This document shows, piece by piece, positions 21,417 through 40,438 of a DNA stretch of 64,000 bases. How positions within the stretch are numbered: position 1 is the stretch's first letter; each line of letters opens with the position of its first letter. Source of the stretch: Terriglobia bacterium (GTDB lineage: Bacteria; Acidobacteriota; Polarisedimenticolia; Polarisedimenticolales; JAIQFR01); the NCBI GenBank assembly GCA_963790465.1, contig CAWBOP010000029.1:10503-74502 (forward strand). The letters are read 5' to 3'. The position numbers and the translations under genes were made by a program. Under the pieces are notes generated by a model. The model saw only the letters and a program-made list of their open reading frames with translations. It did no database searches and was not told the DNA's origin.

Positions 21417-21456
21417 TTGACTCGGGCACCTCGAGGAACGTATAAGGAAGTTATAC
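21417..21456 (+). promoter_or_regulatory. Sigma70-like promoter with palindromic operator over the -10
   Basis: TTGACT-18-TATAAG; inverted repeat GTATAA-N5-TTATAC at 21440-21456. Confidence 0.55.
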
Positions 21457-21474
21457 ACTCACGGGGTTAAGCAT

Positions 21475-21668
21475 ATGCCCCGAGGCGCTGGGTACGGTGG
21501 CGGAGCGTCCGACGCGGTTCGACGACACAACGTCGTCACGTCGAGCGGTAGTTTGCGCCTCGTTCGTCAAAGCGACATCTTCGCGTCGGCGGTGCGCGAG
21601 ATCCTCGAATCGAGCCCGCTCCGCGAGGCGGGTTCCCAGCCGCTCACCCTGTCGCAGTTCCGCCTGTC
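21475..21668 (+). pseudogene. Truncated MarR-like regulator N-terminus, in frame with the downstream ferredoxin
   Basis: IFASAVREILE...PLTLSQFRL resembles MarR helix 1-2; wHTH missing. Confidence 0.4.
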
Positions 21669-21723
21669 CCTGCCGAAAACGTCACCCGGCACACGCTCGC
21701 GCCCTCAGTCCGAAGGAGATCTC

Positions 21724-22068
21724 ATGAGACTCTGGCGAAAACCGCTCGACCTGGACCAGATCAAGATCCCGCACGGGGTGGTGCGCATCGTGGTCGACCG
21801 TTGCAAAGGGTGCGGCTTCTGCGTGGAGTACTGCCCGAAAGACGTTCTGGTGATGTCCGAGGAATTCAACCGCAAGGGGTATCACCCACCCGCGGTGGTC
21901 AAGAACGGGGAATGCGTCGCTTGCAACCTCTGCGAGATGATCTGCCCCGAGTTCGCGATCTACAGCGTGTTGCTGCCGGAAGCGGGGACGGTGGCCGCGG
22001 ACGAAGACCTGCCACGGGAAGCCGACCGGCTCGAACCCGATGAGCAGCGGAGGAGGGCGGTCTCGTGA
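21724..22068 (+). CDS. korD: 2-oxoacid:ferredoxin oxidoreductase delta subunit (2x4Fe-4S)
   Basis: CKGCGFCVEYCP, CVACNLCEMICPEFAI; AAGGAG SD. Confidence 0.88.
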   Translation: MRLWRKPLDLDQIKIPHGVVRIVVDRCKGCGFCVEYCPKDVLVMSEEFNRKGYHPPAVVKNGECVACNLCEMICPEFAIYSVLLPEAGTVAADEDLPREADRLEPDEQRRRAVS

Positions 22069-23222
22069 AAGCCGATTCGAGGGGCGTCCTGACCGGTACG
22101 CACTACCTGGACGGCGATTTTGCCTGCGGCGAGGGGGCGATGGCGGCGGGCTGCCGTTTCGTGGCCGGATACCCCATCACCCCTTCCACCGAGGTCGTCG
22201 AGCGCATCGCGCGCCGGTTCCCGATGATGGGGGGGCTCTTCGTGCAGATGGAGGACGAGATGGCCAGCATGGCGGCCGTCATCGGCGCGTCTTGGACCGG
22301 CACGAAGTCCATGACGGTGACCAGCGGTCCGGGTTTCAGCCTGATGATGGAGAACATCGGCCTGGCGGCGATGATGGAGACGCCGTGCGTGGTCGTGAAC
22401 GTCCAGCGGGGCGGCCCGTCCACGGGGCTCCCGACCATGGTGGGTCAGGCCGACATGATGCAGGCGCGCTGGGGCTCTCACGGCGACTACGAGCTCGTGG
22501 CGCTGTGCCCTCAGTCGCCGCAGGAGGCGTTCGAGCTGACGGTGGAGGCGTTCAATCTCTCCGAGCGATACAGGGTGCCCGCCCTGGTCATGATGGACGA
22601 GTGCGTCGGGCACATGACGGAGAAGGTTGTCATCCCCCCGGCCGACCGGATCGAGGTCGTGCCCCGCAAGCTCACGTCCAAGCCGACGGACGAGTTCCTG
22701 CCGTACCGGGTGAGCGGCGGGGACGTTCCGGAGTTCGCCCGGGCGGGAGACGGGTACAAGTTCCACGCGACGGGTCTGACGCACGACGAGCGCGGCTATC
22801 CGGTCATGAGCGCGGAGTTCCAGGAAATCTGCGTGCGCCGCCTGGTGGACAAGATCCGGCAGAACGCCGACCGGATCGTGCGCTTCGAAGAAGAAGGAAC
22901 GGACGGCGCGGACGTGGTCGTGGTGGCGTACGGGATCACCTCCCGTATTGCCCGCATGGCGGTCGAGCTGGCGCGAAAGAAGGGGGCTAAGGTCGGGATG
23001 CTGCGGCTGGTCGTGGTCTGGCCGTTCCCCGAGAAGCGAATCCGCGAGATCGCCGGCAGGGTCAAGGCCTTCGTGGTTCCGGAGATCAACTACGGCCAGA
23101 TCGTGCTGGAGGTGGAGCGTTGCGCGGCCGGACGCGCCGCCGCGATTCTCGTCCCCCACGGCGGCGGGGGCGTCCACGATCCCAAGGACATCTGCGAGAC
23201 GATCATGGGGGTGATCCGATGA
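22065..23222 (+). CDS. korA: 2-oxoacid:ferredoxin oxidoreductase alpha subunit
   Basis: GYPITPS, QMEDE, TSGPGFSLM, QRGGPSTGLPT. Confidence 0.93.
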   Translation: MKADSRGVLTGTHYLDGDFACGEGAMAAGCRFVAGYPITPSTEVVERIARRFPMMGGLFVQMEDEMASMAAVIGASWTGTKSMTVTSGPGFSLMMENIGLAAMMETPCVVVNVQRGGPSTGLPTMVGQADMMQARWGSHGDYELVALCPQSPQEAFELTVEAFNLSERYRVPALVMMDECVGHMTEKVVIPPADRIEVVPRKLTSKPTDEFLPYRVSGGDVPEFARAGDGYKFHATGLTHDERGYPVMSAEFQEICVRRLVDKIRQNADRIVRFEEEGTDGADVVVVAYGITSRIARMAVELARKKGAKVGMLRLVVVWPFPEKRIREIAGRVKAFVVPEINYGQIVLEVERCAAGRAAAILVPHGGGGVHDPKDICETIMGVIR

Positions 23223-24115
23223 GCTCCCTTCTCGAACGAGCCGAGGTTTCGCCGGAAGAGCATCCGATCGCTCCCTTCATCCGGATGGATCGGATGCCTC
23301 ACATCTGGTGCCCGACGTGTGGCATCGGCACGGTCGTCAAGTGCTACGCGACCGCACTCCAAGAAACCGGCGTCGACCTGAACAAGGCGGCGATCGTGTC
23401 CGGGATCGGGTGTACGGGCCGGGTGGCGGGTTACATGAAGCTCGACGGGTTCCACGCCACGCACGGCAGGGCGATCCCGTTCGCGACAGGGCTGAAGCTG
23501 GGACGGCCGGAGTTGCTCGTGACCGTCTTTTCCGGGGACGGTGACCTGGTGGGGATCGGCGGCAACCACTTCATCCACGCCGCCCGGCGCAACATGGACC
23601 TCCTGGTCATCCTCGTGAACAACTTCATCTACGGGATGACCGGCGGGCAGAACGCGCCCACGACTCCGCCGACCGCGAAGACCTCGACGATGCCCTTCGG
23701 GAATTTCGAGCGCGCCTTCAATCTCCCCCACCTCGCCGCGAGCTGCGGGGCCACCTACGTGGCGCGGTGGACCTGTCTGCACGTCCGGAGGCTCACGAAG
23801 TCGATCTCCGAGGCGCTTCAGCGCAAGGGGTTCCGGTTCATCGAGGTGATCACGCCGTGCTCCACGCTGTACGCGCGCCTCAACAAGCTGGGAACCGGCC
23901 TGAGCCTGATGCGGTTCTACCACGACAACGCTGAGATCCGCCACGGTGCCGATACCCGGGAGCTGGGCATCGGATACCAGGATCGCGTGGTCTGCGGCAA
24001 GTTCGTCGACGAGGAGCGCCCGACCTACCTCGACATGATGCACGACTACTACCGAAAAGTCCTGGGCGACAAGTACGTGCCGATGCCTCCGGAAGGAGGG
24101 ATGATCCATGGATAG
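23219..24115 (+). CDS. korB: 2-oxoacid:ferredoxin oxidoreductase beta subunit (TPP)
   Basis: WCPTCG, SGIGC, HGRA, GDGD, NNFIYGMTGGQ. Confidence 0.93.
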   Translation: MSSLLERAEVSPEEHPIAPFIRMDRMPHIWCPTCGIGTVVKCYATALQETGVDLNKAAIVSGIGCTGRVAGYMKLDGFHATHGRAIPFATGLKLGRPELLVTVFSGDGDLVGIGGNHFIHAARRNMDLLVILVNNFIYGMTGGQNAPTTPPTAKTSTMPFGNFERAFNLPHLAASCGATYVARWTCLHVRRLTKSISEALQRKGFRFIEVITPCSTLYARLNKLGTGLSLMRFYHDNAEIRHGADTRELGIGYQDRVVCGKFVDEERPTYLDMMHDYYRKVLGDKYVPMPPEGGMIHG

Positions 24116-24701
24116 GAAAGAAATCCGGGTCACGGGCTACGGTGGCCAGGGCGTGGTTCTCCTGAGTTATGTGATCGGCCGCGCCTGCGCGGTGCACGCC
24201 GGCATGCACGCCACGATGATCCAGAGCTTCGGTCCGGAGGCGCGCGGATCGGCATGCAGTGCGACGCTCGTGGTCTCGGACAGCGAGGTGCTCTACCCGT
24301 ACATCGCGCGTCCCGACATCTTCGTGGTCATGTCCGGCGAAGGGTACGAGAAGTACGCCGACGAGCTCAAGGACGGCGGCGTCCTGATCTACGAGAAGGA
24401 CCTGGTCCGACCGACCGTCAAAACGGGGCAGCGGGCCCACGGGATCCCCTCCACGCGGATCGCGGAGTCTCTCGGCCGCTCCATGGTTCAGAACATCGTG
24501 ATGCTGGGCTTCTTCTCAGCGATCACGCGTATCGTCTCCCTCGACCAGATCCGGGAGGCGGTCAAGGTATCGGTGCCGGCGGGAACCGAGGAGCTGAACG
24601 TCAAGGCCTTCGACGCCGGCTGGGCCCATTTCGAGGCGCCGGACGCAGAAGATTCGGCGGCCAGGACCGAGACGGTGGCCGCCACCTCGGGACCGCGGTG
24701 A
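24108..24701 (+). CDS. korC: 2-oxoacid:ferredoxin oxidoreductase gamma subunit
   Basis: [21 protein letters not shown]. Confidence 0.9.
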
Positions 24702-24733
24702 AATCCGACACAACTTTTCGGAGGCGCAGGAGC

Positions 24734-27700
24734 ATGGACGATTCATCGGCGCGAGACGGTGGGGGGCGGGGCATCGGCACGGAGAAGAGAGCGCTGGTCG
24801 TCGGCGGAGGCATCGCCGGGATCCAGGCGGCCCTGGACCTCGCCAGTGCCCGCATTCGCGTGACCCTGGTGGAGAAGTCGTCTTCGCTGGGCGGCCGCAT
24901 GGCCCAGTTGGACAAGACCTTCCCCACCATGGACTGCTCGATCTGAATCCTCGGCCCCAGGGCCATGGATGCCGGTCGGCATCCACTGATCGAGGTCGTC
25001 ACGCTGGCGGAAGTCGTCGGCTGCGAAGGCGAGCCGGGGGATTTCCGGGTTCGCATCCGGAGGACCCCTCGGTACGTGCGTGAGGACCTGTGCGTGGCGT
25101 GCGGGCTGTGCGTGGATGCCTGCCCCCAGGTCGGCGGCAACGAGTTCGACGTCGGGCTCAAGGCCCGCAAGGCGATCTACCGACCGTTTCCGCAGTCGGT
25201 TCCGGCGGCTTACGTGATCGATCGGGAGGCCTGTCTCAACGACCGGATCCTGGTTTGCGACCGCTGCTCGAGGGTGTGCGACGTCGGCGCCATCGATTTC
25301 GACATGACGCCCCGCGAGACGGTCGTCCGGGCGGGCGCCATTCTGGTCGCCGTGGGCTTCGAGGAATTCGACGCCCGGAAACTCGGCCACTACGGCTACG
25401 GTAGGCTCCCCGACGTCGTCACCAGTCTCGAATTCGAGAGGATGCTCAACGCCTCCGGGGTGACGCAGGGCCACGTCGTGCGGCCATCCGACAGGAAGAC
25501 CCCGAAGCGGATCGTGTTCATCCAGTGCGTGGGCGCCCGGGGGGAGGGCGGCCGCCCGTACTGCAGCCGCTTCTGCTGCATGAACGCGGTGAAGGACTCC
25601 ATGCTGGTGCGGCAGCACGATCCCGAGGTCGAGGACGTGACCATCCTCTACACCGACCTTCGCGCCTTCGGGAAGGGGTTCGACGATTTCGTGAAACGCG
25701 CCATGGACGAGAAGAGCGCCGAGTTCATCCGCGGCCGCCCCGCGAAGGTCGAGCGCGCCGCGGATGGGAACTCGCTGGAAGTCCTGGTCGAGGACACGCT
25801 GGCGCATCGCCAGCGCCGCATCGGCGCCGACCTCGTCGTGCTGTCCGTCGCCGCGTCGCCGAACGTCGGCGCGACGACGTTGGCCCGCACGCTTGGGATC
25901 GCCACCGACCGCTACGGCTTCGTCGCCCGCCGGGACCCCGCGGTTTCGGCGGTGGAGACCACGCGGGAGGGCATATTCGCCTGCGGCAGCGCGGTCGGCC
26001 CCCAGGTGATCCCGGACTGCGTCGCGCAGGCCTCGGCGGCGGCGGCCCGGGCCCAGCTTTTTTTCACCGGAGACCGAGTCGAGGAGCATGCGAGGCCCGT
26101 TCCGCCCCTCGACACTACCGGTCCGCCCCGGGTGGGCGTCCTCGTCTGCCGTTGCGGACTCAACATCGCCGGGGTTCTCGATGTCGAGGATCTCACGCGC
26201 TACGCCTCCTCCCTTCGGGGTGTCGTCGCCGCGGAGAACCAGCTGTTTGCCTGCTCGGCCGGGGGCCAAAACTCCCTCGTCGATCTCGTCCGGGACCACG
26301 GGCTCAACCGCCTCGTGATCGCCGCGTGCACGCCGCGGACCCACGAGCCCGTCTTCCGAGAGACCTGCGCGCGGATCGGCTTCAATCCCTACCTCCTCGA
26401 GATGGCCAACATCCGGGACCAGTGCGCGTGGGTCCACGCGAGGCACCCGCTCGCAGCCCAGGAAAAGGCGCGAACGCTGATCCGTATGGCCATCGCGCGG
26501 GCCCGCCACCTCGAGCCGCTCCACGAAGGCGAGTCGCCGATGACCCGGTCGGCGCTGGTCGTCGGCGGAGGGATCGCGGGGATCCAGGCTGCGACCGACC
26601 TCGCGGTCCAGGGGATCCCGGTGACCCTGGTCGAGAAGGAAAGTCGGCTCGGAGGCCGGCTCCGTGAGCCGAGCCTGAAGCACCTCTATCCCAACATGCG
26701 ACCGGCAGCCGAGGTTCTGGAGCAGAAGATCGCGCGTCTCGGGGAGAGCGGAGCCCGTGTTCTGCTGGAGACCGAGGTGGAGAACATCTCGGGTTTCGTG
26801 GGGTGCTTCGAGGCAACGCTCAAGGGGCGCTCCAGGGAGATCCTGCCCGTCGGGACCATCATTCTCGCGGTCGGCGCGGAGCTTTTCGACCCCCGGGGCG
26901 CCTACCGCTACGGCGAGCTTGAGAACGTGCTGACCAGCGAGGAGTTGGAGCGCGGGTTCTTCGAGGCCGGCGACGGACGGGTCGTGCGCGGCGAGCAGCC
27001 GGACAGTGCCGCGTTCATTCTGTGCGTCGGCTCCCGCGACCCGGACGGGTTCACCGGGTGCTCACGGTACTGTTGTCCGACGGCGATCAAGCAGGCCATT
27101 CAGCTCAGCCGGCGGGGGATCGATACCACGATCTTCTACCGCGACATCCGGACGATCTCGACGGGGGCGGAGGAGATGTACCGCGAGGCTCGAGAGTCGG
27201 GAGTGCTCTTCGTCCGGATCCCGCCGGGACGGAAACCCGAGGTCCTGGGCGAGGAACGGGCGCGGGCTATCCACTGCTTCGACGATCTGCTGGGGCGGGA
27301 GTTGGAAGTGCCGACGGACCTCGTGGTGCTCAGCGTCGGCATGAGACCGCGGCAGCCGGAGACGCAGCGGTTCCACGACATGCTCAAGGCCAGCCTCGGG
27401 CTCGACGGGTTCTTCCTCGAGCGTCATCCCGAGCTGGCGCCGGTGGAGACCGCGGTGGAGGGGTTGTTCCTCGCCGGAACGGTCCAGGGCCCCAAGGACA
27501 TCGTCGACTCCGTCGCCCAGGCCTCCGCTGCCGCGGCGAAGGCCTCGGTCTTCCTAGCCCACGACAAGGTGAGGCTCGATCCCGCGGTGGCTGCGGTGGA
27601 CGAGGCGAGATGCCGCGGGTGCGGCAGCTGCGTCGAGATCTGTCAGTTCCAGGCGCCCCGTCTCGCAGAGACCGCATCCGGCCTCTTCGCGGCGCACGTC

Positions 27701-27832
27701 AACGCGTCGCTTTGCAAGGGGTGCGGGACCTGCGCGAGCTGGTGCCCCTCGGGCGCCATCGCCTCGAGGCACTTCACCGACCGACAGGTGCACGCCATGA
27801 TCGACGCGTTCTTCGCCGAGGAGATCGCATGA
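24734..27832 (+). CDS. hdrA: Tandem (two-module) HdrA-like flavoprotein, selenoprotein with UGA at 24944-24946, ~1032 aa
   Basis: VVGGGIAG...[16 protein letters not shown] continues in frame into ORF 24965..27832; two FAD motifs, ferredoxin motifs, CSRFCC and CSRYCC. Confidence 0.9.
24966..24985 (+). promoter_or_regulatory. Bacterial SECIS-like hairpin
   Basis: TGGATGCC-GGTC-GGCATCCA, 19 nt after the in-frame UGA. Confidence 0.8.
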
Positions 27833-28308
27833 CGCGGCGCGCTTCGGAGAAGCGAGCCGCGGCGGAGCAGCCTCCCGTCGCGGCGGCCCCATGGAACCCG
27901 AGCATCGTCGTGTTTGCGTGCAACTGGTGCTCCTATGCGGGCGCGGACACCGCCGGCGTCTCCCGGATCCAGCACGAGCCGCATTTCCGCATGATCCGGG
28001 TGATGTGTTCGGGGCGCATCCAACCGGGTTTCGTGTTGCGCGCGTTCGAAAGAGGGGCCGATGGCGTGCTGGTCTCGGGGTGTCACTTCGGAGACTGCCA
28101 CTACGTGTTCGGCAACCACCGCGCGGTGGAGCAGTTCGAGAAGACGAAGAACGTCGTCCGCCTCCTGGGGCTCGAGAACGGACGGCTGCGGCTGGAGTGG
28201 ATCAGCGCGGCGGAAGGGCCCCGGTTCGCGGCGGTCATCAACGAGTTCACCGAGGTGGTGCGCAAGCTGGGCCCGAGCCCCTTCGCGGGTCATGGCAGGG
28301 CGGCGTGA
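27829..28308 (+). CDS. mvhD: MvhD-like 2Fe-2S subunit
   Basis: [35 protein letters not shown]. Confidence 0.92.
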   Translation: MTRRASEKRAAAEQPPVAAAPWNPSIVVFACNWCSYAGADTAGVSRIQHEPHFRMIRVMCSGRIQPGFVLRAFERGADGVLVSGCHFGDCHYVFGNHRAVEQFEKTKNVVRLLGLENGRLRLEWISAAEGPRFAAVINEFTEVVRKLGPSPFAGHGRAA

Positions 28309-29471
28309 GCGGGGAAGGAGCGAAGGTGATGCCGGAACTCGCCGAGGCGTCGAAGAGGACCCGGGCGTGGGCCTGCTACGATTGCGGGAAGTGCACCGCG
28401 TCCTGCCCGATCGCCCGGGCGGGCGGCGACTGCAGCCCGCGGCGAAACGTCCTTGCCATGAACCTCGGGGCGACCGGCGGGGAGCCGGCGAGCGCCAGCC
28501 TCTTCACCTGCCTCACCTGCTCACTCTGCGACCGGCGCTGCCCCGCCCAGGTCGCGTACACCGACCTCGTGCGGAGCCTCAGGGAGCACGCCTTCCGCGA
28601 AGGGGTGGAACCGGAATGCCCGCACGGCGGGGCTCTTCAGTCCGCCATGCGGATGATGGCCAGGGGGGGCACGCGCCAGGACAGAATGGGCTGGTTGGGC
28701 GGCGACCTCAAAACCCAGCCTGCGGCCGGAAAGGTGTTCTACTGGACCGGCTGCGCGATGTACTTCGACGCCTTCTTTCCCGACCTCGGCCTCTCCATCC
28801 TCGACGGTCCGCGGGCGGCCGTGCGCTCGATGAACAGGCTGGGTGTGGAGCCCGTGATCTCGCCGGCCGAGCGCTGCTGCGGGCACGATCTCCTGTGGAA
28901 CGGCGATCGCAACGCCTTCGACCTCCTGGCGAAGCACAACGTCGACCTGGTGGCGGGCAGCGGCGCCGACGTGCTTGTAACTTCGTGCGCCGAGTGCCTC
29001 CGAACGTGGAAGGCGGACTACGCGCCGCTCCTCGCGGGGAAGCCCTTGCGAATTCTCCACATCACCGAGTTCCTGCTCGAGCACTTGTCCGAGCTCGAAC
29101 TAAGATCCGACGCCGGGGGGCGGGTCACCTACCAGGACCCCTGCCGGCTCGGTCGTCACCTCGGAATCTACGATCCTCCCCGACGGCTTCTGCGGGAGTT
29201 GCCCGGGGTTGCCCTGGTGGAGATGGGGCGGACCGGCCCCGCGGCGATCTGCTGCGGCGGGGGGACCTGGTCCCACTGCGACGGCTTCGCCAAGAAGATC
29301 CAGGTGGAGCGTTTGCGCGAGGCCAAGGCGACGGGAGCGGATGTGCTGGTGACGGCGTGCCCGAAGTGCCAGATCCACTTCCGTTGCGCCATGAAGGACC
29401 CGATTCTCGGGGGGGAGATCGGCCTCAGAGTTCGCGACGTGGCCGAGCTCATCGCCGACGCGCTCGGCTAG
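28305..29471 (+). CDS. HdrD/GlpC-like Fe-S protein (2x4Fe-4S plus two CCG domains)
   Basis: [49 protein letters not shown]; start GTG 28305 or ATG 28329. Confidence 0.88.
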
Positions 29472-29511
29472 AGAGCCCAACTCGACGGGCTCGCGGAAAG
29501 GAGAACGATCG

Positions 29512-31959
29512 ATGGCTCTCAATGCGACCGCCGCCGACCTCCGCATAGGCGTTTTCGTCTGCGATTGCGGGCTGAACATCGCCGGCACCGTGGACTGCGC
29601 GGCGGTGGCCGAGTACGCGAACACGATGCCGGACGTGACCTGCGTGGTCCGGAACAAGTACACCTGCGCCGAACCGGGCCAACAGGAAATCAGGTCGGCG
29701 ATTCGCCAGCACAACCTGAACCGGGTTGTCGTCGCGTCGTGCACGCCGAGACAGCACGAGCCCACGTTCCGGCAGTGCGTGTTCGAGGCGGGCTTGAACC
29801 CGTACCTGATGGAGATGGCCAACCTGCGGGAGCACTGCTCCTGGGTCCACGCGGGCGACCGGGAGGGGGCGACGGAAAAGGCCAAGGACCTTGTCGCCTC
29901 GGCCGTCGCGCGCGCCCGCTTCCTCCAGCCCCAGGAGGAGATCACCGTGCCGGTCACGAAGGCGGTGCTGGTGATCGGCGGAGGGGTGGCGGGCATCGAG
30001 ACCGCCATCGAGCTGGCCGACGCGGGGCACAAGGTGATCCTGGTCGAGAAGGAGCCCTCCATCGGTGGGATCATGGCGCAGCTCGACAAGACCTATCCCA
30101 CGATGGACTGCTCGATATGAATCCTCGGGCCTAAGGCCATCGATGCCGGTCGGCATCGAAACATCGAGCTCCTGACGTACAGCGAAGTCGAGCAGGTTTC
30201 CGGCTTCATCGGGAATTTCAAGGCCACGATCCGCAAGAAGGCCCGATACGTCGATCCCAAGGCGTGCAACGGATGCGGCGAATGCGCGAAGGTGTGCCCC
30301 GTCGTCCGCCCGGACGAGTACCAGATGGGGCTGTCCTCACGGAAAGCCGTCTACATCCCGTTTCCCCAGGCGGTGCCCTGCTCCTACATCCTGAACATGG
30401 ACGACTGCCTCGGGAACAACCCGATCGCGTGCGGGAAGTGCGCGGAGGTGTGCGAGAAGCGCGCGATCGATTACGACGATCGCGCCGAGATTCTGACACG
30501 GGAGATCGGAGCCATCGTCGTGGCGATCGGCCTGGACGTCTACGATCCGACGGAGATGGATGAGTACGGCTACACCCGCTTCGAGAACGTCATCACGTCC
30601 ATGGAGTTCGAGCGTCTGATCTGCGCCGGCGGACCCACCGCGGGTCACTTCGTCCGCCCCAGCGACAACGTGCGCCCGAGGCGGATGGGCTTCATCCAGT
30701 GCGTCGGATCCAGGAACCCGAAGATCGGCCGGCCGTACTGCTCCAACATCTGCTGCATGAACACGGTGAAGGACACGCTGCTCCTCGCCGACCACTACCC
30801 CGACGTGGAGAACGTGGTGTTCTACCAGGACATCCGCGCATTCGGGAAATCCTTCGAGGACATGTACCAGAGGTCGAAGCAGGCCGGAACGCGCTACGTC
30901 CGGGGACTCCCGGGGGACATCGAGGAGGATCCCGGGACGAGGAACCTGGTCGTCACCGTGGAGAACACCACCACCGGAAGACTCGAGCGCCACGAGCTGG
31001 ACATGGTGGTCCTGTCGGTGGGAGTGGTGCCGCCGAAAGACCTCGCGAAGATCTCCTCGATGCTGACGCTCTCCAAGACCTCCGATGGGTTCTTCATGGA
31101 GACCCACCCGAAGCTGAAGCCGGTGGACGCGCCGACCCGTGGCATCTACTTCGCGGGATTCTGCGAGGCTCCCAAGGACATCAAGGACTCGGTCTGCCAG
31201 GCGGGCGCCGCGGCCTCCCGCGCGGGAGCCCTCCTCAACATCGGTCTAATCAAGATCGAGGCGATCACCAGTCGCATCGACGAGGTCGAGTGCAAGAAGT
31301 GCGGCCTCTGCGCCCCCATCTGCCCCTACGGGGCGATCGTCTGGAAGAAAGGCGAGGTGGCCACGGTCGTGGAGGCGGCGTGCGCGGGCTGCGGGGCGTG
31401 CGGCGCGACCTGTCAGTACGGCGCGATCACCATGCGGCACTTCACCGACGATCAGATCCTGGCGCAGGTGCACGCGATCCTCGCGGAGAGGCCGCAGGAC
31501 AAGGTCTTCGCCTTCGCCTGCAACTGGTGCTCGTACGCCGGCGGCGACATGGCGGGGATCTCCCGCGTCCAGTATCCGGCCACGAACCGCGTCGTGCGCA
31601 CGATGTGCTCCGCTCGCGTCTCGGAGGAGATGGTGGTGGAGGCATTCCGGGCCGGCGCGCCCGTGGTCCTTGTGTCGGGATGCCACTACGCGGACTGTCA
31701 CTACATCAACGCCAACCGGCAGACCGTGAAGCGCGTGCAACGTTTGTGGGACCGCTTGGAGAAGGTGGGGATCCGACCGGAACGGCTCCAGCTCGAGTGG
31801 ATCAGCGCCGCAGAGGGGCAGAAGTTCGCCAGCGTGATGCGCCGGATGGAGGAACTGAGAAAGACGGTCACCGCCGCCGAGATCGAGCACGCTCGGCAGG
31901 CATTGAAACTCAGGGCGGGCAAGGCAGCCGGCATCGCCGTGGGAGCGGCTCCGAGCTAG
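29512..31959 (+). CDS. hdrA: HdrA-MvhD fusion, selenoprotein with UGA at 30118-30120, ~815 aa
   Basis: IGVFVCDCG...IGGGVAG...[17 protein letters not shown] continues in frame into ORF 30292..31959; C-terminal FACNWCSY...GCHYADCHY. Confidence 0.9.
30140..30159 (+). promoter_or_regulatory. Bacterial SECIS-like hairpin
   Basis: TCGATGCC-GGTC-GGCATCGA, 19 nt after the in-frame UGA. Confidence 0.8.
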
Positions 31960-31976
31960 ACGATTCGGGGGATCGC

Positions 31977-32132
31977 ATGGGCACAGCCTCGGTCGAGACT
32001 TTTCGCTGCATGATGTGCGGCCACGAGTACCAGGAGCGGGTCGAGCCCGGCGAGGACAAGGAGCGCTCGTGCCCCAAATGCCGCTCGAACAGCATCCGCC
32101 ATCTCAAGAAGAAACGGTCGGAGAAGGAGTAA
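31977..32132 (+). CDS. Small zinc-ribbon/rubredoxin-like protein, 51 aa
   Basis: FRCMMCGHEY...CPKCRS; GGGGA SD; fills the gap in the operon. Confidence 0.75.
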   Translation: MGTASVETFRCMMCGHEYQERVEPGEDKERSCPKCRSNSIRHLKKKRSEKE

Positions 32133-32137
32133 AGCCG

Positions 32138-33568
32138 ATGCCAAGGACACGCTCGGCGAAGGAGGGACCGGTTCGGGTCGACTTCCGATTCCGCCGAGAG
32201 CTGGCCCGGAAGGTCGAGGGCAACCTGGCCAGCTTCTGCTACCAGTGTGGCGCATGCGTGGGGGACTGTCCCTCGACCACTTACGGCAGCGCGTTCAACC
32301 CCCGCGAGATCATGCTGAAAGTTCTCTACGGCTTGGGGGAGGAGCTGCTCGTCGAGGACTCGATCTTGTGGCAATGCTCCAACTGCTACAGCTGCCACGA
32401 GCGGTGTCCTCAGGGCGTCAAGCCGGTCGAGGTGATCGTTTCCCTCAAGAACATGCTTGCCGAGCGAGGACTGTACCCGGAGACGGTCAAAAAGGTCATC
32501 GACACCTTCGAGGCGACCGGCCGGACGACACCCTGGAGTCCCAGCGTCGATCGCCAGCGCGCAGCGTTCGGCCTGCCCCCCATGCGTCCGGTGCCGGTCG
32601 AGGAGATCCGGATGCTCCTCCAAGATCCCACGCCGGAAGCTGGGATCCTACGACCGGCCGCCCGAAACGACGGCGACGCGTTTCCCATCCATGGAGGCTC
32701 GAGGCGGTTCGCGTTCTTCCCGGGCTGCCTGATCCCGTCGAGGCACCCGTCGATGGAGTTCGCCATCCGCGAGACGCTCTCCCGGCTGAGCATCGAGATC
32801 GTGGAACTCGAGGGGGCGTCGTGCTGCCCGGATCCGATCTACTTCAAGTCGAAGGACAAGGTCTCGTGGCTCGCCGTGGCGGCCCGAAACCTGACGCTGG
32901 CCGAGGATCTGGGGCTCGATCTCTTCACCAACTGCTCCGGGTGCACCGCGACGCTGTCCGAGACGTATCACCTTCTCGACGACGACTCGCTGCGTGCCAG
33001 GGTCAATGGCCGCCTCAGGACGTGCGGCCGCGAATACTTGGGGACCAGCCGGGTCCGGCACGTCGTGACCCTCCTCCGGGACGTGGTCGGCTTCGACGCG
33101 GTTCGTGCATCGGTCGTGCGACCTCTCGAGGGCCTCAAGGTGGCGGTCCACTATGGCTGCCACCTGCTCAAGCCGAGCCGGATCATGCAGGTGGACGACC
33201 CCAACGATCCCGTCGTGCTGGAGAGGCTGGTCGCGGCACTGGGCGCTACGCCGGTCCGGCACCGCAATTGGTACCTCTGCTGCGGGAAGGCCTGCCAGTC
33301 GGAAGAGATTCCATCGAACATGATGCACGACCTGCTGAAAGCCGTGCAGGCCGAGCAGGCCGACCTCCTCTGCCTGATCTGTCCCACCTGCTTCGGCCAG
33401 TTCGACCACGGCCAGGCCAAGGTGTCGACTCGGTTCGGCGAGAACTTCAACACGCCGCCGGTGTACTTCTTTCAGCTCCTGGCGTTCGCGCAGGGCGTTC
33501 CCTACGACAAGCTCGGCTTCGAGCGACAGCGCTACAAGCCCGAGGTGCTGCGGCGTTTCGAGACCTGA
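32138..33568 (+). CDS. HdrC-HdrB fusion
   Basis: CYQCGACVGDCP, WQCSNCYSCHERCP; then FFPGC, SCCPDP, NCSGC, HYGCHLLKP, CCG, CPTCFGQFD. Confidence 0.9.
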   Translation: MPRTRSAKEGPVRVDFRFRRELARKVEGNLASFCYQCGACVGDCPSTTYGSAFNPREIMLKVLYGLGEELLVEDSILWQCSNCYSCHERCPQGVKPVEVIVSLKNMLAERGLYPETVKKVIDTFEATGRTTPWSPSVDRQRAAFGLPPMRPVPVEEIRMLLQDPTPEAGILRPAARNDGDAFPIHGGSRRFAFFPGCLIPSRHPSMEFAIRETLSRLSIEIVELEGASCCPDPIYFKSKDKVSWLAVAARNLTLAEDLGLDLFTNCSGCTATLSETYHLLDDDSLRARVNGRLRTCGREYLGTSRVRHVVTLLRDVVGFDAVRASVVRPLEGLKVAVHYGCHLLKPSRIMQVDDPNDPVVLERLVAALGATPVRHRNWYLCCGKACQSEEIPSNMMHDLLKAVQAEQADLLCLICPTCFGQFDHGQAKVSTRFGENFNTPPVYFFQLLAFAQGVPYDKLGFERQRYKPEVLRRFET

Positions 33569-33645
33569 CGGGAGCGATCGTCGGGGCAAACGCACACGCA
33601 GCTCCGATACCGGGTCCCCGGGGAATCCCGAGGCGTCGCGCCAGT

Positions 33646-34101
33646 TCAATCCAGGGGGGCCGGTCCCCCTTCCAGCGCGGTCAGGAACAACTCGTTCTCC
33701 CGTGTCTCGTGCCGGTGGAGCTCCGTGACGATCGATCGGACTTCGGCCGCGAGGGCCGTGACCGCACCGTCCGCGGCGGGCCTCGCCGCCAGCGACCCCA
33801 GGACCGCGTCCAGGCGGTCGAGATACCGACGATGGTCTCGCAGGAAGGTGACGCACTGCGCTGCTGCGTTGGGCCACGCGCGCTCGATGTCCTCGAAGAA
33901 TCCCGATCTCGTCTCCAAATCGAAGTGCGCTTCCAGGTCGGGCCTGAGGCTACCGATCCTCCGGGACAGGTCGTCGAGCCAAGCCCCGCGGGCCTCGGCC
34001 GAGGGGGTCGCCGCCGTCAGCCGTTCCAGTTCCGCGAGCTCCTTTCGAAGCTGCCTGTGCTCCTCCAGCACCTGTCGGGTCTCGTCGCCGTGGCTCGTCA
34101 T
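33646..34101 (-). CDS. Hemerythrin-like domain protein
   Basis: EEHRQL, HFDLE, DHRR, HRHETRENELF. Confidence 0.75.
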   Translation of the reverse strand: MTSHGDETRQVLEEHRQLRKELAELERLTAATPSAEARGAWLDDLSRRIGSLRPDLEAHFDLETRSGFFEDIERAWPNAAAQCVTFLRDHRRYLDRLDAVLGSLAARPAADGAVTALAAEVRSIVTELHRHETRENELFLTALEGGPAPLD

Positions 34102-34269
34102 GGTCGGGCTCCCGATGAAAACATGGCAGGCAGATTCGCGTGGCAAGGTTGGAATGCGCTTCTTCCGCCCGACGCTCCGGGCCTGACATCGCCCGCGGGT
34201 TTGCCCATCCCCCTCCCCCTGGTTTCCTACACGCTACGATACACCGCTTCGCGGCCGGCGGAGACCCCT

Positions 34270-37209: not shown

Positions 37210-37289
37210 GGGCCAGCAATCCTAACCGAAAGCCGCCATCGCGGGGCCGGCGGGAGAACCTGCAGGCGTCGGAACGACCTCGGGCGGGC

Positions 37290-37850: not shown

Positions 37851-37873
37851 GAGAACTTCTCCTTAGACCGCCG

Positions 37874-40428: not shown

Positions 40429-40438
40429 GGTAGAACGC

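What the first reader, a model, noticed from the sequence alone, without database searches (positions are those of the whole stretch)
21724..33568. Candidate 2-oxoacid-driven Hdr electron-bifurcation system: OFOR operon joined to HdrA2-MvhD-HdrD-HdrA/MvhD-Zn ribbon-HdrCB
Seen: ten co-oriented genes with overlaps or gaps of about 40 bp or less behind one promoter-like site. No hydrogenase (MvhAG), formate dehydrogenase or FlxABC gene is in the cluster. Known: HdrABC-MvhD complexes normally take electrons from Mvh, Fdh or Flx and couple ferredoxin with a disulfide by flavin-based bifurcation. Inference: a four-subunit OFOR supplies low-potential electrons. Two separate CCG-type subunits (HdrD-like and HdrCB), each near its own HdrA/MvhD module, could link two different thiol/disulfide pools in a non-methanogen. 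I do not recall this architecture being characterised.
Basis: partly seen in the sequence, partly recalled or inferred. Interest (0 to 1): 0.75.

Follow-up and report, generated by a model that had tools for sequence, protein, structure and literature searches.

The report
OFOR wired to twin selenium Hdr modules
A ten-gene operon joins a 2-oxoacid:ferredoxin oxidoreductase to two selenocysteine-containing heterodisulfide-reductase-type electron-bifurcation modules; the same block recurs in many uncultured bacterial phyla and seems never to have been studied.

Summary
Ten co-oriented genes (21724-33568) encode KorDABC, a fused double HdrA, MvhD, an HdrD-like protein, an HdrA-MvhD fusion, a Zn ribbon and an HdrC-HdrB fusion. 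No promoter-like site was found.

KorA/B lie beside an HdrA-type gene in 60 of 63 related loci, and all ten genes are present in 37 of 63. These loci are MAGs labelled Acidobacteriota, Planctomycetota, Gemmatimonadota, Zixibacteria, Ignavibacteria and others. The block is an indel relative to a same-genus genome.

Natural fusions tie MvhD to HdrD, and the Zn ribbon to HdrA-MvhD. Double HdrA/MvhD/HdrD is a paralogue of the BamE/F/D core of class II benzoyl-CoA reductase, at 40% identity to a bam-like cluster. OFOR sits where BamBC sits, and an HdrA2B2C2-like module sits where BamGHI sits.

I read it as one redox unit that couples the 2-oxoacid/acyl-CoA+CO2 couple to thiol/disulfide-type sites. 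The direction, the substrates and physical docking are not shown. Mvh-like hydrogenases occur elsewhere in the genome. It is a new variant of a known kind.

The parts
21451..21666 (+). Remnant (about 70 codons) of a MarR-family regulator gene, in frame with the ORF that runs into korD
   Evidence: tblastn of the L010 MarR protein hits only G000:C29:31953-32168, which is window 21451-21666 (44% identity over 72 aa). An intact MarR gene lies directly upstream of korD in 19 of 63 loci.
21724..22068 (+). korD: OFOR delta subunit, 114 aa, two [4Fe-4S] motifs
   Evidence: Pfam Fer4/Fer4_7. Best NCBIfam hit is OGOR_delta, 66 bits, below the cut-off of 125. The 8 cluster cysteines are invariant in 31 of 31 orthologues.
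22065..23222 (+). korA: OFOR alpha subunit, 385 aa
   Evidence: Pfam POR_N and PFOR_II. Passes NCBIfam NF006412, 2-oxoacid:acceptor oxidoreductase alpha (561.6 bits, cut-off 411). Nearest solved chain is 1yd7_A, E 9e-112.
23219..24115 (+). korB: OFOR beta subunit (TPP-binding), 298 aa
   Evidence: Pfam TPP_enzyme_C. Nearest solved chain is the OGOR beta subunit 8ys5_C, E 1e-56.
24108..24701 (+). korC: OFOR gamma subunit, 197 aa
   Evidence: Pfam POR, E 5e-34.
24734..27832 (+). Fused, domain-permuted double HdrA (1032 aa, BamE-like). It consists of TrxR1 with an inserted ferredoxin domain and a Cys68-x-x-Sec71 motif, then an HdrA N-domain, then TrxR2 without insert or Sec, then a C-terminal ferredoxin domain.
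   Evidence: Read with TGA=U. Three stretches align to HdrA 5odc_A: 14-389 to 140-510, 464-597 to 3-136, and 846-1029 to 471-652. GxGxxG at 24 and 611; CCxxxxK Lys287 and Lys786. 40% identity to the double HdrA of a bamBCDEFGHI-like cluster.
24944..24983 (+). Sec codon TGA (24944-24946) and SECIS-like hairpin GAUGCC-GGUC-GGCAUC (24968-24983)
   Evidence: Fold. The hairpin is kept in 36 of 36 aligned sequences, with a compensatory CG to UA change in 3. The TGA is at this motif in every bacterial locus where the motif was found.
27829..28308 (+). mvhD: [2Fe-2S] adaptor, 159 aa
   Evidence: Pfam FlpD, E 2e-51. Matches 7bkb_F, E 3e-48. Fused to HdrD-like in L050, L052 and L063 and to the double HdrA in P0063.
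28329..29471 (+). HdrD-like subunit, 380 aa: two [4Fe-4S] motifs plus two complete CCG motifs
   Evidence: Pfam Fer4_17 and two CCG domains. CCG motifs at 142-223 and 272-347. The 8 + 10 cysteines are kept in 46-47 of 47 orthologues. Best NCBIfam hit is TfrB, 150.6 bits, below the cut-off of 385. Best solved chain is 9ojn_A.
29512..31959 (+). HdrA-MvhD fusion (815 aa, HdrA2-type) with Cys200-x-x-Sec203
   Evidence: Read with TGA=U. Passes NCBIfam NF040770, HdrA2 (1132.5 bits, cut-off 1100). Residues 10-656 align to 5odc_A 4-649, E 8e-238, and 662-778 align to MvhD 5odc_D.
30118..30157 (+). Second Sec codon TGA (30118-30120) and SECIS-like hairpin (30142-30157)
31977..32132 (+). Zn-ribbon protein, 51 aa, CxxC...CxxC (Cys 11, 14, 32, 35)
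   Evidence: Weak Pfam Zn_ribbon_8 and NCBIfam TIGR02605 hits, both below cut-off. It stays next to HdrA-MvhD when hdrCB moves. It is fused to the C-terminus of HdrA-MvhD in L065.
32138..33568 (+). HdrC-HdrB fusion, 476 aa: two [4Fe-4S] motifs plus two complete CCG motifs
   Evidence: Pfam Fer4_8 and two CCG domains. Residues 190-463 align to methanogen HdrB 8rvu_b, E 3e-69. Residues 15-152 align to HdrC. CCG motifs at 197-269 and 341-418.
33646..34146 (-). Hemerythrin-domain gene on the opposite strand. It lies inside the block that is absent from the same-genus genome.
   Evidence: Pfam Hemerythrin. A hemerythrin-domain ORF family (Pfam-checked on its L053 member) is present in 4 other loci. 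Indel mapped.

Best explanation
The block encodes one selenium-dependent, soluble redox unit. In it, a dedicated four-subunit 2-oxoacid:ferredoxin oxidoreductase (KorDABC) is coupled to two HdrA-type flavin-based electron-bifurcation modules.

**Module 1** is the permuted double HdrA, MvhD and HdrD-like. It is a paralogue of the BamE/BamF/BamD core of class II benzoyl-CoA reductase.

**Module 2** is the HdrA-MvhD fusion, the Zn ribbon and the HdrC-HdrB fusion. It is HdrA2B2C2-like and close to methanogen HdrABC.

**Inferred wiring.**
- The inserted ferredoxin domain of an HdrA flavin module passes low-potential electrons to or from KorD and KorABC. These occupy the genomic position that BamC-BamB holds in bam clusters.
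- The two CCG subunits, each with all cysteines for two non-cubane clusters, handle one or two thiol/disulfide-type high-potential couples.
- The MvhD [2Fe-2S] adaptors link the modules.

**Direction.** My preferred direction is about 55:45 over the reverse. Bifurcation pushes low-potential electrons into OFOR, so that it works as a 2-oxoacid synthase (acyl-CoA + CO2). This follows the examples of Hdr-Fmd/Fwd and BamBC. The system may well be reversible.

**Shown:** gene content, Sec decoding signals, conserved synteny, the fusions inside each Hdr module, and paralogy to a bam-like cluster.

**Inferred:** physical docking of OFOR, the direction, the substrates, and bifurcation itself.
For: **Conserved synteny.** The loci come from MAGs labelled as at least ten phyla.
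- KorA/B occur with an HdrA-type gene in 60 of 63 loci.
- All ten genes are present at 40% identity or more in 37 of 63 loci.
- The four Bathyarchaeia loci keep the HdrA-MvhD gene directly followed by korDABC.

**Operon structure.** Junctions are overlapping or 40 nt or shorter.

**Fusions.**
- MvhD-HdrD as one ORF in 3 loci.
- Double HdrA-FlpD in P0063.
- HdrA-MvhD-Zn ribbon in L065.

**Cofactor motifs.**
- HdrA-MvhD aligns end to end with solved HdrA and MvhD, E 8e-238.
- HdrCB aligns with HdrB and HdrC.
- All CCG cysteines are present, and are kept in 46-47 of 47 HdrD orthologues.
- The double HdrA maps as a permuted HdrA dimer with one CxxU site, matching the text description of BamE (preprint 10.64898/2026.04.10.717634, section 7).

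**Paralogy to a bam-like cluster.** A bamBCDEFGHI-like cluster in the same phylum has a double HdrA 40% identical over residues 21-1025. Its MvhD-like protein is 46% identical and its HdrD-like protein 30% identical. There the AOR (BamB-like) takes the place of Kor, and NuoE/F-like genes take the place of module 2.

**Sec decoding.**
- TGA with a conserved hairpin in 36 of 36 sequences.
- tRNA-Sec and SelA are present in the genome.

**The block behaves as a unit.** In the same-genus genome G264 the PLD-like and GlnD-like genes are about 200 bp apart, with no kor-hdr block between them.

**Published precedents.**
- korABCD interleaved with flxABCD-hdrABC, with a proposal of direct electron delivery to OGOR (PMC6315080, passages).
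- Hdr hard-wired to Fmd/Fwd (abstracts only, listing).
Against: - There is no evidence of physical contact between OFOR and Hdr.
  - A search for longer proteins containing KorD gave 13 hits. All are fusions to Kor beta or alpha subunits, none to HdrA or MvhD.
- OFORs normally use free ferredoxin, so co-regulation alone could explain the synteny.
- No mid-potential donor is encoded in the block.
  - F420 markers CofH and FrhB were not found.
  - Some related loci carry a GltD-like NAD(P)H module in place of the double HdrA (L070 and the Bathyarchaeia loci). This shows that the window version lacks an obvious input.
- The disulfide substrate is unknown. DsrC is present in only 24 of 50 cluster-bearing genomes.
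- Several features differ from Bam.
  - MvhD is short (159 aa) and has Cys, not Sec.
  - HdrD keeps the distal CCG cluster motif that most BamD proteins lose.
  - TrxR2 keeps the Lys where BamE has Gln (compared).
- ATP-citrate lyase was not found, but the control genomes were silent too, so that search says nothing.
- No transcript data exist, and no promoter was found.
- The genome is 89.8% complete.
Confidence: 0.5

Rival explanations
1. OFOR is the electron-input module. Oxidation of a 2-oxoacid (about -500 mV) feeds the Hdr modules. These reduce one or two disulfides. They possibly conserve the excess driving force by reducing a second low-potential acceptor (ferredoxin), or by linking two thiol pools.
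For: - The synteny and fusion evidence is the same as for the best explanation.
- M. acetivorans HdrA2B2C2 reduces heterodisulfide with reduced ferredoxin (PMC5296606, passages).
- No rTCA marker was found in this genome, although that search was uninformative.
- Judging by their labels, the organisms carrying the block look like sediment heterotrophs, for which 2-oxoacid oxidation is ordinary catabolism. That is my own reading, not tested here.
- A second OFOR operon lies next door.
Against: - Electrons at -500 mV need no bifurcating machinery to reduce a disulfide.
- In the two structurally known cases where an enzyme is wired to the inserted ferredoxin domain of an HdrA-type module (Fmd/Fwd and BamBC), that enzyme receives low-potential electrons (abstracts).
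- No candidate disulfide is encoded in the block, and DsrC is present in only 24 of 50 genomes.
Confidence: 0.35
2. There is no supercomplex. KorDABC and the two Hdr modules are separate enzymes that share a free ferredoxin pool. They are kept together only by co-regulation and co-transfer.
For: - No Kor-Hdr fusion appears among the 13 longer KorD-containing proteins.
- korC and hdrCB change position in some loci. korC lies behind hdrCB in L016, L019, L020 and L024. hdrCB lies upstream in L045, L048, L049 and L059-L062.
- OFORs are typically ferredoxin-dependent (established knowledge).
Against: - No ferredoxin gene is in the window block.
- Gene order is unusually rigid across phyla at 50-85% identity.
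- In the bam paralogue the enzyme in the equivalent position is a subunit of the complex.
Confidence: 0.25
3. The Hdr modules work with a conventional donor encoded elsewhere, such as an Mvh-type [NiFe] hydrogenase or a formate dehydrogenase. The adjacent kor genes are then only a ferredoxin sink or source.
For: - [NiFe] hydrogenase large-subunit genes lie on C23 (94260-96566) and C13 (182107-183634).
- NuoF-like genes lie on C1, C22 and C26.
- A molybdopterin fragment with a TGA lies at C29:853-1449.
- HdrABC and Mvh genes are often unlinked in methanogens (PMC6085437, passages).
Against: - Both hydrogenase loci have their own HdrA and MvhD genes beside them.
- None of the 63 related loci showed a hydrogenase or FDH among the recurrent neighbours. 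The recurrent extras were MarR, GNAT, hemerythrin, GlnD-like and a second OFOR.
Confidence: 0.1
4. It is part of a class II benzoyl-CoA (aryl-CoA) reductase, with its tungsten subunit encoded elsewhere.
For: The double HdrA/MvhD/HdrD set resembles BamE/F/D. One AFOR_N hit exists on contig C1.
Against: - The C1 hit is an AFOR_N-only ORF followed by NuoE/NuoF-like genes. No AFOR_C domain was detected.
- kor genes, not AOR genes, flank the double HdrA in 60 of 63 loci.
- A separate, complete bam-like cluster exists as a 40%-identical paralogue in another genome of the phylum.
- HdrD keeps the distal cluster motif that most BamD proteins lack.
Confidence: 0.03

Closest known systems
BamDEF core of class II benzoyl-CoA reductase, BamBCDEFGHI (Geobacter metallireducens; Appel et al., bioRxiv 2026, 10.64898/2026.04.10.717634; I read the abstract, sections 5, 7 and 9, and passages)
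   Same: - A fused HdrA dimer with one CxxC-type site next to the bifurcating flavin, seven [4Fe-4S] motifs and two FAD motifs.
- An MvhD-type adaptor.
- An HdrBC/HdrD-like fused CCG subunit.
- A low-potential catalytic enzyme with its own ferredoxin-like subunit encoded alongside.
- A second bifurcation-type module in the same operon.
- Measured here: 40%, 46% and 30% identity to the BamE-, BamF- and BamD-like proteins of a bam-like cluster.
   Different: - OFOR (KorDABC) replaces the tungsten enzyme BamBC.
- An HdrA-MvhD/HdrCB module replaces the NADH/ferredoxin module BamGHI.
- MvhD is short and has Cys, whereas BamF is more than 100 aa longer and has Sec19.
- The CxxC is CxxU here.
[quoted passage not shown]
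- TrxR2 keeps the Lys, where BamE has Gln768.
HdrA2B2C2 of Methanosarcina acetivorans (Yan, Wang & Ferry 2017, PMC5296606; passages read)
   Same: - HdrA fused to MvhD. The window protein passes NCBIfam NF040770.
- It is partnered with HdrB/HdrC-type proteins.
- It acts without a hydrogenase.
- It interacts with ferredoxin.
   Different: - Here HdrB and HdrC are fused, and a Zn ribbon is added.
- Here there is a Sec codon where solved methanogen HdrA has Cys; M. acetivorans HdrA2 itself was not compared.
- The F420 markers CofH and FrhB were not found in this genome.
- The organism is not a methanogen, so CoM-S-S-CoB is unlikely to be the substrate.
MvhAGD-HdrABC and Fdh/Vhu-Hdr-Fmd/Fwd complexes of methanogens (PDB 5odc, 7bkb, 8rvu, 9sfi)
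   Same: - HdrA, MvhD, HdrB and HdrC align over their full lengths with strong scores.
- The Sec lies at the Cys of DCSICIL.
- In the supercomplexes the low-potential branch is wired directly into a CO2-reducing enzyme (abstracts only).
   Different: - No hydrogenase or FDH is in the operon.
- There is an extra double-HdrA/HdrD module.
- OFOR replaces Fmd/Fwd.
korABCD + tfrAB interleaved with flxABCD-hdrABC in rTCA clusters of tubeworm symbionts and Thioflavicoccus mobilis (Rubin-Blum et al. 2019, PMC6315080; passages read)
   Same: A four-subunit OFOR is genetically embedded among hdr genes. The authors proposed that the complex shuttles electrons directly to OGOR.
   Different: - That system has the NADH module FlxABCD and sits among rTCA genes (acl, acn, idh, mdh).
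- The window has none of these. It has a double HdrA, an HdrD-like protein and an HdrA-MvhD fusion instead.
- Sequence relatedness between the two systems was not measured.
Fused and tandem HdrA genes of ANME archaea (Chadwick et al. 2022, PMC9012536; passages read)
   Same: A fusion of two HdrA units in which the N-terminal FeS domain and the Cys197 position are each retained by only one unit, implying a built-in heterodimer.
   Different: - The order is reversed here: the Cys/Sec-bearing unit comes first.
- The host is bacterial.
- The associated genes are kor genes rather than FrhB or methanogenesis genes.
Four-subunit 2-oxoacid:ferredoxin oxidoreductases (Pyrococcus 2-keto acid:Fd oxidoreductase, 1yd7; OGOR, 8ys5 and 6n2n)
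   Same: All four subunit families are present. KorA passes the NCBIfam equivalog. The best solved matches are 1yd7_A (9e-112) and 8ys5.
   Different: - Substrate specificity is unresolved, because the beta, gamma and delta subunits fall below the curated cut-offs.
- No characterised OFOR that I found is encoded inside an hdr operon of this kind.

Membership tests
Four-subunit OFOR (KorDABC/OorDABC type) | Alpha subunit with POR_N and PFOR_II domains | tested here: met
   Pfam 1e-70 and 2e-22. NCBIfam NF006412 scores 561.6, above the cut-off of 411.
Four-subunit OFOR (KorDABC/OorDABC type) | Beta (TPP-binding), gamma (POR) and delta (two [4Fe-4S]) subunits encoded together | tested here: met
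   Pfam TPP_enzyme_C, POR and Fer4 hits. The NCBIfam equivalogs for beta, gamma and delta are below their cut-offs, so the subfamily and substrate are open.
Four-subunit OFOR (KorDABC/OorDABC type) | Defined 2-oxoacid specificity (pyruvate, 2-oxoglutarate, branched-chain or aromatic) | not testable with these tools
   The nearest solved relatives are a Pyrococcus 2-keto acid enzyme and OGORs. No specificity residues were analysed.
HdrABC-MvhD type heterodisulfide reductase | HdrA with an FAD motif, N-terminal and C-terminal FeS domains, an inserted ferredoxin domain and the Cys197 position | tested here: met
   Residues 10-656 of the HdrA-MvhD fusion align to 5odc_A 4-649, E 8e-238. Sec lies at the Cys of DCSICIL.
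HdrABC-MvhD type heterodisulfide reductase | HdrB with two CCG motifs (10 Cys) and HdrC with two [4Fe-4S] motifs | tested here: met
   HdrCB motifs at 197-269 and 341-418, with Cys 34-44 and 80-90. Aligns to HdrB at E 3e-69 and to HdrC at E 4e-22. TIGR03288 scores 264.7, below the cut-off of 345.
HdrABC-MvhD type heterodisulfide reductase | Electron donor module (MvhAG, FdhAB, FlxABCD or MetFV) in the operon or known to bind | tested here: not met
   None is in the window. Mvh-like genes elsewhere have their own Hdr genes.
HdrABC-MvhD type heterodisulfide reductase | Reduces CoM-S-S-CoB | not tested
   CoM and CoB biosynthesis was not searched. The organism is a bacterium: the best Obg matches are Acidobacteriota.
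HdrA2B2C2 (M. acetivorans type) | HdrA fused to MvhD | tested here: met
   NF040770 scores 1132.5, above the cut-off of 1100, over residues 11-791.
HdrA2B2C2 (M. acetivorans type) | F420H2 as the bifurcation donor | tested here: inconclusive
   CofH (TIGR03551) and FrhB (PF04432) were not found in a genome that is 89.8% complete.
BamDEF module of class II benzoyl-CoA reductase | BamE: a fused HdrA dimer with a bifurcating TrxR1 and a second TrxR2 | tested here: met
   Domain map and motifs. 40% identity to the double HdrA of a bam-like cluster. The feature list is taken from the preprint text.
BamDEF module of class II benzoyl-CoA reductase | BamF: an elongated MvhD-like adaptor with Sec | tested here: not met
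   The window MvhD is 159 aa with Cys at 31, 34, 60, 85 and 90, and has no TGA. The bam-like cluster has a 312 aa homologue.
BamDEF module of class II benzoyl-CoA reductase | BamD: distal non-cubane cluster disrupted, heterodisulfide pocket blocked | tested here: not met
   All 10 CCG cysteines are present and are kept in 46-47 of 47 orthologues. The pocket residues were not examined.
BamDEF module of class II benzoyl-CoA reductase | Adjacent BamBC (tungsten AOR plus FeS subunit) and BamGHI (NuoEFG-like) | tested here: not met
   kor genes and hdrA-mvhD/hdrCB occupy these positions. The only AFOR_N hit in the genome is a partial ORF on C1.
FlxABCD-HdrABC | FlxABCD NAD(P)H dehydrogenase genes next to hdrABC | tested here: not met
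   No NAD(P)H-binding module is in the window cluster. GltD-like modules occur only in variant loci.
Bacterial selenoprotein (Sec-decoded TGA) | In-frame TGA at a conserved Cys position, a downstream hairpin, and Sec machinery in the genome | tested here: met
   Searches cover the TGA and hairpin. tRNA-Sec is at C13:110400-110497 and SelA at C13:23055-24149. SelB and SelD were not searched.

The most novel reading that the evidence does not exclude
This is a third natural design, after Hdr-Fmd/Fwd and the Bam complex, in which an HdrA-type bifurcating flavin is hard-wired to a low-potential carbon-converting enzyme. It would be a bifurcation-driven 2-oxoacid synthase. A dithiol oxidised at one CCG subunit supplies the electron pairs. 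One electron is lifted into OFOR for reductive carboxylation of an acyl-CoA. The other falls to a higher-potential disulfide or carrier at the second CCG subunit. Two serially coupled selenium-containing HdrA modules do the work. The block is horizontally mobile and is found in Acidobacteriota, Planctomycetota, Gemmatimonadota, Zixibacteria, Ignavibacteria and others. It would therefore be an unrecognised, widespread route of CO2 incorporation and anaplerosis in anoxic sediments.
Probability: 0.25. Interest if true: 0.85.

Novelty: new variant of a known kind. Interest (0 to 1): 0.7.

Why it matters
**An open question.** What HdrA-type modules do outside methanogens has long been unclear (as stated in PMC5296606 and PMC6085437, passages read).

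**A specific, testable case.** Here is a rigidly conserved operon with hundreds of relatives in species-level genomes: 603 matching stretches. In metagenome protein sets, 7995 of the 8000 scored candidates reach E 1e-50 or better, though these may include ordinary HdrA.

**Current annotation hides it.** Public annotations call the proteins only 'heterodisulfide reductase subunit A' or 'FAD-dependent oxidoreductase'. The gene calls are truncated at the Sec codon.

**Links to known structures.** It joins two structurally understood bifurcation cores, BamDEF-like and HdrABC-like, to an OFOR.

**Consequences.**
- If OFOR is wired directly, this extends the principle of modular, serially coupled bifurcation units to central carbon metabolism.
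- It could change how reduced-ferredoxin budgets, 2-oxoacid synthesis and selenium dependence are modelled for abundant uncultured sediment bacteria.
- It also gives a defined target for finding the non-methanogen 'heterodisulfide'.

Tried and rejected
**Transcripts.** The look-up of sequencing runs listed no RNA holder. Only small-share DNA runs were listed, and I did not lay them.

**Complex prediction.** I dropped it and did not spend the job on another pair, because natural fusions already answered the MvhD-HdrD and Zn-ribbon questions.

**Promoter scan.** No site was found.

**DsrC as the universal substrate.** Rejected as obligatory. It is present in 24 of 50 cluster-bearing genomes. This genome has a DsrC with both C-terminal cysteines but no NIR_SIR/DsrAB hit.

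**F420 as donor.** CofH and FrhB were not found.

**rTCA marker.** ATP-citrate lyase (PF16114) gave no hit, but it also gave none in any control genome, so the search is uninformative.

**KorD-Hdr fusion.** Among 13 longer proteins containing KorD, all were Kor fusions. This is weak negative evidence.

**BamB elsewhere in the genome.** Only an AFOR_N-only ORF was found.

**Rfam.** There is no family hit inside the cluster. The SECIS-like hairpin was found by folding instead.

**Literature.**
- Nine full-text searches were answered; one further search call failed on term format.
- I read passages of PMC9723716, PMC11316326, PMC6085437, PMC9304861, PMC9012536, PMC7886697 and 10.1101/2024.09.26.615249.
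- None described a kor + double-hdr cluster.
- Two likely relevant papers are not held and were not seen: the Appel et al. 2021 BBA review on HdrA(BC) modules, and Pereira et al. 2011 (my two guessed identifiers, tried in three calls, 62, 64 and 65, brought nothing). Either may mention such clusters.
- Supplements of the papers I read were not opened. Fig. S5 and Text S1 of PMC6315080 may bear on the kor-hdr proposal.

Full report
**1. What is in the sequence**

The window has about 67% G+C, so most long ORFs are shadows. Codon-position G+C and Pfam pick out ten co-oriented genes between 21724 and 33568:

| Gene | Coordinates |
|---|---|
| korD | 21724-22068 |
| korA | 22065-23222 |
| korB | 23219-24115 |
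| korC | 24108-24701 |
| double HdrA, 1032 codons | 24734-27832 |
| mvhD | 27829-28308 |
| HdrD-like | 28329-29471 |
| HdrA-MvhD fusion | 29512-31959 |
| Zn ribbon, 51 codons | 31977-32132 |
| HdrC-HdrB fusion | 32138-33568 |

- Junctions are overlaps of 4-8 nt or gaps of 5-40 nt.
- The window holds no hydrogenase, formate dehydrogenase or Flx-type gene.
- The consensus scan found no sigma-70-like promoter in 20900-34400, against 1.0 expected. It found one weak terminator-like site inside hdrCB. The operon is therefore inferred from spacing, not from signals.

**2.

- Both HdrA genes are broken under table 11 by a TGA inside TMDCSI-TGA-ILGP. This position aligns with the Cys of DCSICIL in solved HdrA.
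- Each TGA is followed, 22 nt later, by the hairpin GAUGCC-GGUC-GGCAUC.
- In an alignment of 36 such regions (2 from the window, 34 from other genomes) the hairpin is kept in 36 of 36. One pair changes CG to UA in 3 sequences, and the synonymous sites within it are frozen.
- In every bacterial related locus where the motif was found the codon is TGA. Only the four Bathyarchaeia loci have TGC or TGT.
- The genome has tRNA-Sec and SelA.
- Public gene calls for the double HdrA cover 92% of it. They start after the TGA and are named only 'heterodisulfide reductase subunit A/A2' or 'FAD-dependent oxidoreductase'.

**3. Conservation**

With the double HdrA as query, 603 stretches in the species-representative genome collection encode relatives. 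The best 80 gave 63 loci. I laid the ten window proteins on these loci by tblastn.

- All ten genes are present at 40% identity or more in 37 of 63 loci.
- KorA/B at 50% or more lie with an HdrA-type gene in 60 of 63. The three misses are contigs of 2.6-6 kb.
- Most incomplete loci end at a contig edge or have an HdrD that has drifted to 32-39% identity.
- The records are MAGs labelled Acidobacteriota, Planctomycetota (Phycisphaerae, Planctomycetales), Gemmatimonadota, Zixibacteria, Ignavibacteria, Eisenbacteria, Fermentibacteria, Cytophagia, 'Deltaproteobacteria', Ardenticatenia and Bathyarchaeia.
- These loci were chosen as the closest relatives of one gene, so the counts describe this orthologous group, not all HdrA genes.
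- Variants:
  - korC sits behind hdrCB in 4 loci.
  - hdrCB sits upstream in 8 loci by the rows (L045, L048, L049, L059-L062).
  - The Bathyarchaeia loci keep only HdrA-MvhD followed directly by korDABC.
  - In L070, and in a shared ORF family of L066-L070, a GltD-like NAD(P)H module fused to MvhD stands where the double HdrA would be. Only the L070 member was scanned with Pfam.

**4. The block is mobile or dispensable**

- In a 300-genome sample of the window's own phylum, a near-full-length orthologue (48% identity or more) appears in 10 genomes.
- The one same-genus genome (G264, 100% complete) and the eight same-order genomes lack it.
- In G264 the PLD-like gene (79% nucleotide identity to window 19515-21120) lies about 200 bp from the GlnD-like gene, followed by the second OFOR operon.
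- Window ~21130-34270 is therefore an indel. It spans the MarR remnant, the ten genes and the hemerythrin gene.
- The cluster proteins are 73-77% identical to those of MAGs labelled as other phyla. Obg of this genome is only 58-65% identical to its best matches, which are Acidobacteriota.
- The flank synteny with G264 also argues that contig C29 is correctly binned.

**5. Anatomy of the Hdr part**

*HdrA-MvhD fusion.*
- It aligns end to end with HdrA and MvhD of the solved methanogen complex (E 8e-238 and 4e-37).
- It passes NCBI's HdrA2 model.

*HdrCB.*
- It aligns with HdrB (E 3e-69) and HdrC.
- It has both CCG motifs.

*Double HdrA.* It maps onto HdrA in three pieces: 14-389 to 140-510, 464-597 to 3-136, and 846-1029 to 471-652. 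The domain order is:
- a TrxR-like flavin domain with the inserted ferredoxin domain and the Cys68-x-x-Sec71 site;
- then the HdrA N-terminal FeS domain;
- then a second, divergent flavin domain without insert or Sec;
- then the C-terminal ferredoxin domain.

Both flavin domains keep GxGxxG and the CCxxxxK lysine.

*HdrD-like protein.*
- It has 8 ferredoxin-type and 10 CCG cysteines, kept in 46-47 of 47 orthologues.

*Natural fusions that join the parts.*
- MvhD-HdrD as one ORF in L050, L052 and L063.
- Double HdrA-FlpD in P0063.
- HdrA-MvhD-Zn ribbon in L065.
- The Zn ribbon stays with HdrA-MvhD when hdrCB moves.

There are therefore two modules: (double HdrA + MvhD + HdrD) and (HdrA-MvhD + Zn ribbon + HdrCB).

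**6. Closest known system**

A 2026 preprint reports the cryo-EM structure of class II benzoyl-CoA reductase (I read the abstract, sections 5, 7 and 9, and passages). According to its text:
- BamE is a fused, domain-permuted HdrA dimer. It has a bifurcating FAD in TrxR1 (Lys280), a non-bifurcating FAD in TrxR2 (Gln768), clusters E1-E7 and a Cys59-Cys62 pair next to cluster E3.
- BamF is an elongated MvhD-like adaptor with Sec.
[quoted passage not shown] It passes electrons to ETF.
- The inserted ferredoxin domain wires the low-potential branch to BamC-BamB.
- BamGHI is a second, NADH/ferredoxin-confurcating input module.

The window's module 1 matches the BamE/F/D plan. I could not obtain Geobacter BamE. 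I did find a complete bamBCDEFGHI-like cluster in another genome of the same phylum (L181). Its gene order is AOR with AFOR_N and AFOR_C, a small ORF, HdrD-like, a double HdrA of 1028 aa, a 312 aa MvhD-like protein, NuoE-like, NuoF-like, and a Fer2/Fer4 protein. Its proteins are 40%, 46% and 30% identical to the window's double HdrA, MvhD and HdrD.

In the window's orthologous group, KorD-KorABC stand where BamC-BamB stand, and HdrA-MvhD/HdrCB stand where BamGHI stand.

Differences from Bam:
- a short MvhD with Cys;
- CxxU instead of CxxC;
- an intact distal CCG motif;
- Lys retained in TrxR2.

Other precedents:
- Fused HdrA units with complementary N-domain and Cys197 in ANME (PMC9012536).
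- korABCD interleaved with flxABCD-hdrABC in symbiont rTCA clusters, with the proposal of direct electron delivery to OGOR (PMC6315080).
- HdrA2B2C2 (PMC5296606).

**7. Rest of the genome (2.93 Mb, 29 contigs, 89.8% complete)**

- Two further Hdr loci exist. Each lies beside a [NiFe] hydrogenase large-subunit gene, on C23 and C13.
- A DsrC-family protein with both C-terminal cysteines is present, but there is no DsrAB-type hit.
- DsrC occurs in 24 of 50 cluster-bearing genomes, so it is not an obligatory partner.
- CofH and FrhB were not found.
- NuoF-like genes lie on C1, C22 and C26.
- The only AFOR_N hit is a partial ORF next to NuoE/F-like genes.

**8. How it most likely works**

*Shown:* gene content, cofactor motifs, Sec signals, synteny, intra-module fusions, and paralogy with a bam-like cluster.

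*Inferred:* OFOR is electrically coupled, probably docked through KorD, to the inserted ferredoxin domain of an HdrA flavin module. The CCG subunits act on thiol/disulfide-type substrates. The MvhD adaptors connect the modules.

*Direction.* I lean (about 55:45) to OFOR as the receiver of low-potential electrons, that is, a bifurcation-driven 2-oxoacid synthase. My reasons:
- In both structurally known cases, the enzyme wired to this port (Fmd/Fwd, BamBC) performs a reduction at or below ferredoxin potential.
- A -500 mV donor needs no bifurcation to reduce a disulfide.

*Against any docking:*
- There is no Kor-Hdr fusion among the 13 longer KorD-containing proteins.
- There are no transcripts.
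- No donor or substrate gene is in the block.

**9. Verdict**

- The conserved kor-hdr link is strongly supported.
- The mechanism is only partly inferable.
- I rate it a new variant of a known kind: an HdrA-type modular bifurcation complex with a new pairing of modules.
- It is widespread and, as far as nine full-text searches and the passages I read show, undescribed.
- Two relevant papers (Appel 2021, Pereira 2011) could not be seen.

Noticed in passing
window 34270-40875 (- strand): A second OFOR operon is followed by a 979 aa protein. The OFOR alpha passes NF006412 at 559 bits, and the gamma is at 37290-37850. The 979 aa protein has only a weak GlnD/GlnE-type nucleotidyltransferase-associated domain (PF08335, 2.6e-10; TIGR01693, 1e-13, far below cut-off). 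A GlnD-like gene with a weakly Kor-like gene beside it lies next to the kor-hdr block in 8 of the 63 related loci (L023, L041, L043, L045, L048, L051, L059, L060). The pair is also present in the same-genus genome that lacks the block. A nucleotidyltransferase tied to an OFOR is unexplained.
   Followed up: partly
window 21451-21666: Only about 70 codons of the MarR regulator remain, in frame with the korD ORF. This regulator precedes korD in 19 related loci. The operon may therefore have lost its repressor in this organism.
   Followed up: partly
L012:18926-19906 and 19 other loci: A GNAT acetyltransferase with a small N-terminal single-cluster ferredoxin-like region follows hdrCB in 20 of 63 loci. 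It is not found in the window's genome (tblastn).
   Followed up: partly
L022, L025, L041; protein P0075: An extra gene encodes a GltD-like NAD(P)H/FAD module fused to the part of the double HdrA from about residue 165 onward (1425 aa in P0075). Where present, it is inserted between the double HdrA and mvhD. Large open frames of 1476-1668 aa whose C-terminal part matches the double HdrA from about residue 160 onward also occur in the phylum sample; their N-terminal parts were not examined.
   Followed up: partly
G000:C23:94260-102226 and G000:C13:170550-183634: Two further Hdr/hydrogenase loci exist. C23 has a [NiFe] hydrogenase, MvhD, two HdrA-like genes and an FeS protein. C13 has a polyferredoxin, HdrA-like pieces split over several frames with in-frame TGAs, MvhD, an MvhG-like gene, a response-regulator/HdrC-like protein, an HdrB-like protein and a [NiFe] large subunit.
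   Followed up: partly
G000:C25:111200-111499 (L086): A DsrC-family protein ends in ...GACRIAGLPKPDGCV, so both redox cysteines are present. The genome shows no NIR_SIR (DsrAB-type) hit.
   Followed up: partly
G000:C1:14982-21232 (L178): An ORF with only the AFOR_N domain of aldehyde:ferredoxin oxidoreductases is followed, in the same frame after a TGA, by a NuoE-like [2Fe-2S] protein. After that come a NuoF-like protein, a 685 aa protein with a ThiS-like end, and a periplasmic binding-protein/permease pair.
   Followed up: partly
L181 (G290:C73:1-17065): A complete bamBCDEFGHI-like cluster, with enoyl-CoA hydratase, thiolase and CoA-transferase genes, lies in a genome of the same phylum as the window. 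This suggests class II aryl-CoA reductases in this phylum.
   Followed up: partly
proteins P0003-P0122: Public gene calls for the double HdrA family almost all start after the Sec codon (92% coverage, about 955-1000 aa). The family is systematically mis-annotated at its N-terminus.
   Followed up: no
window 44110-50767 (- strand): Two very large proteins (about 1020 and 1157 aa) carry right-handed beta-helix and thrombospondin type 3 repeats.
   Followed up: no
window 63595-63994 (- strand): A small SRP RNA and two tRNA genes lie at the window's end, next to dnaX and recR.
   Followed up: no
G000:C29:670-1449 (L085): A molybdopterin-oxidoreductase fragment with an in-frame TGA lies at the very start of the contig, about 9 kb upstream of the window. 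It could be a Sec-containing formate dehydrogenase cut by the contig end.
   Followed up: no
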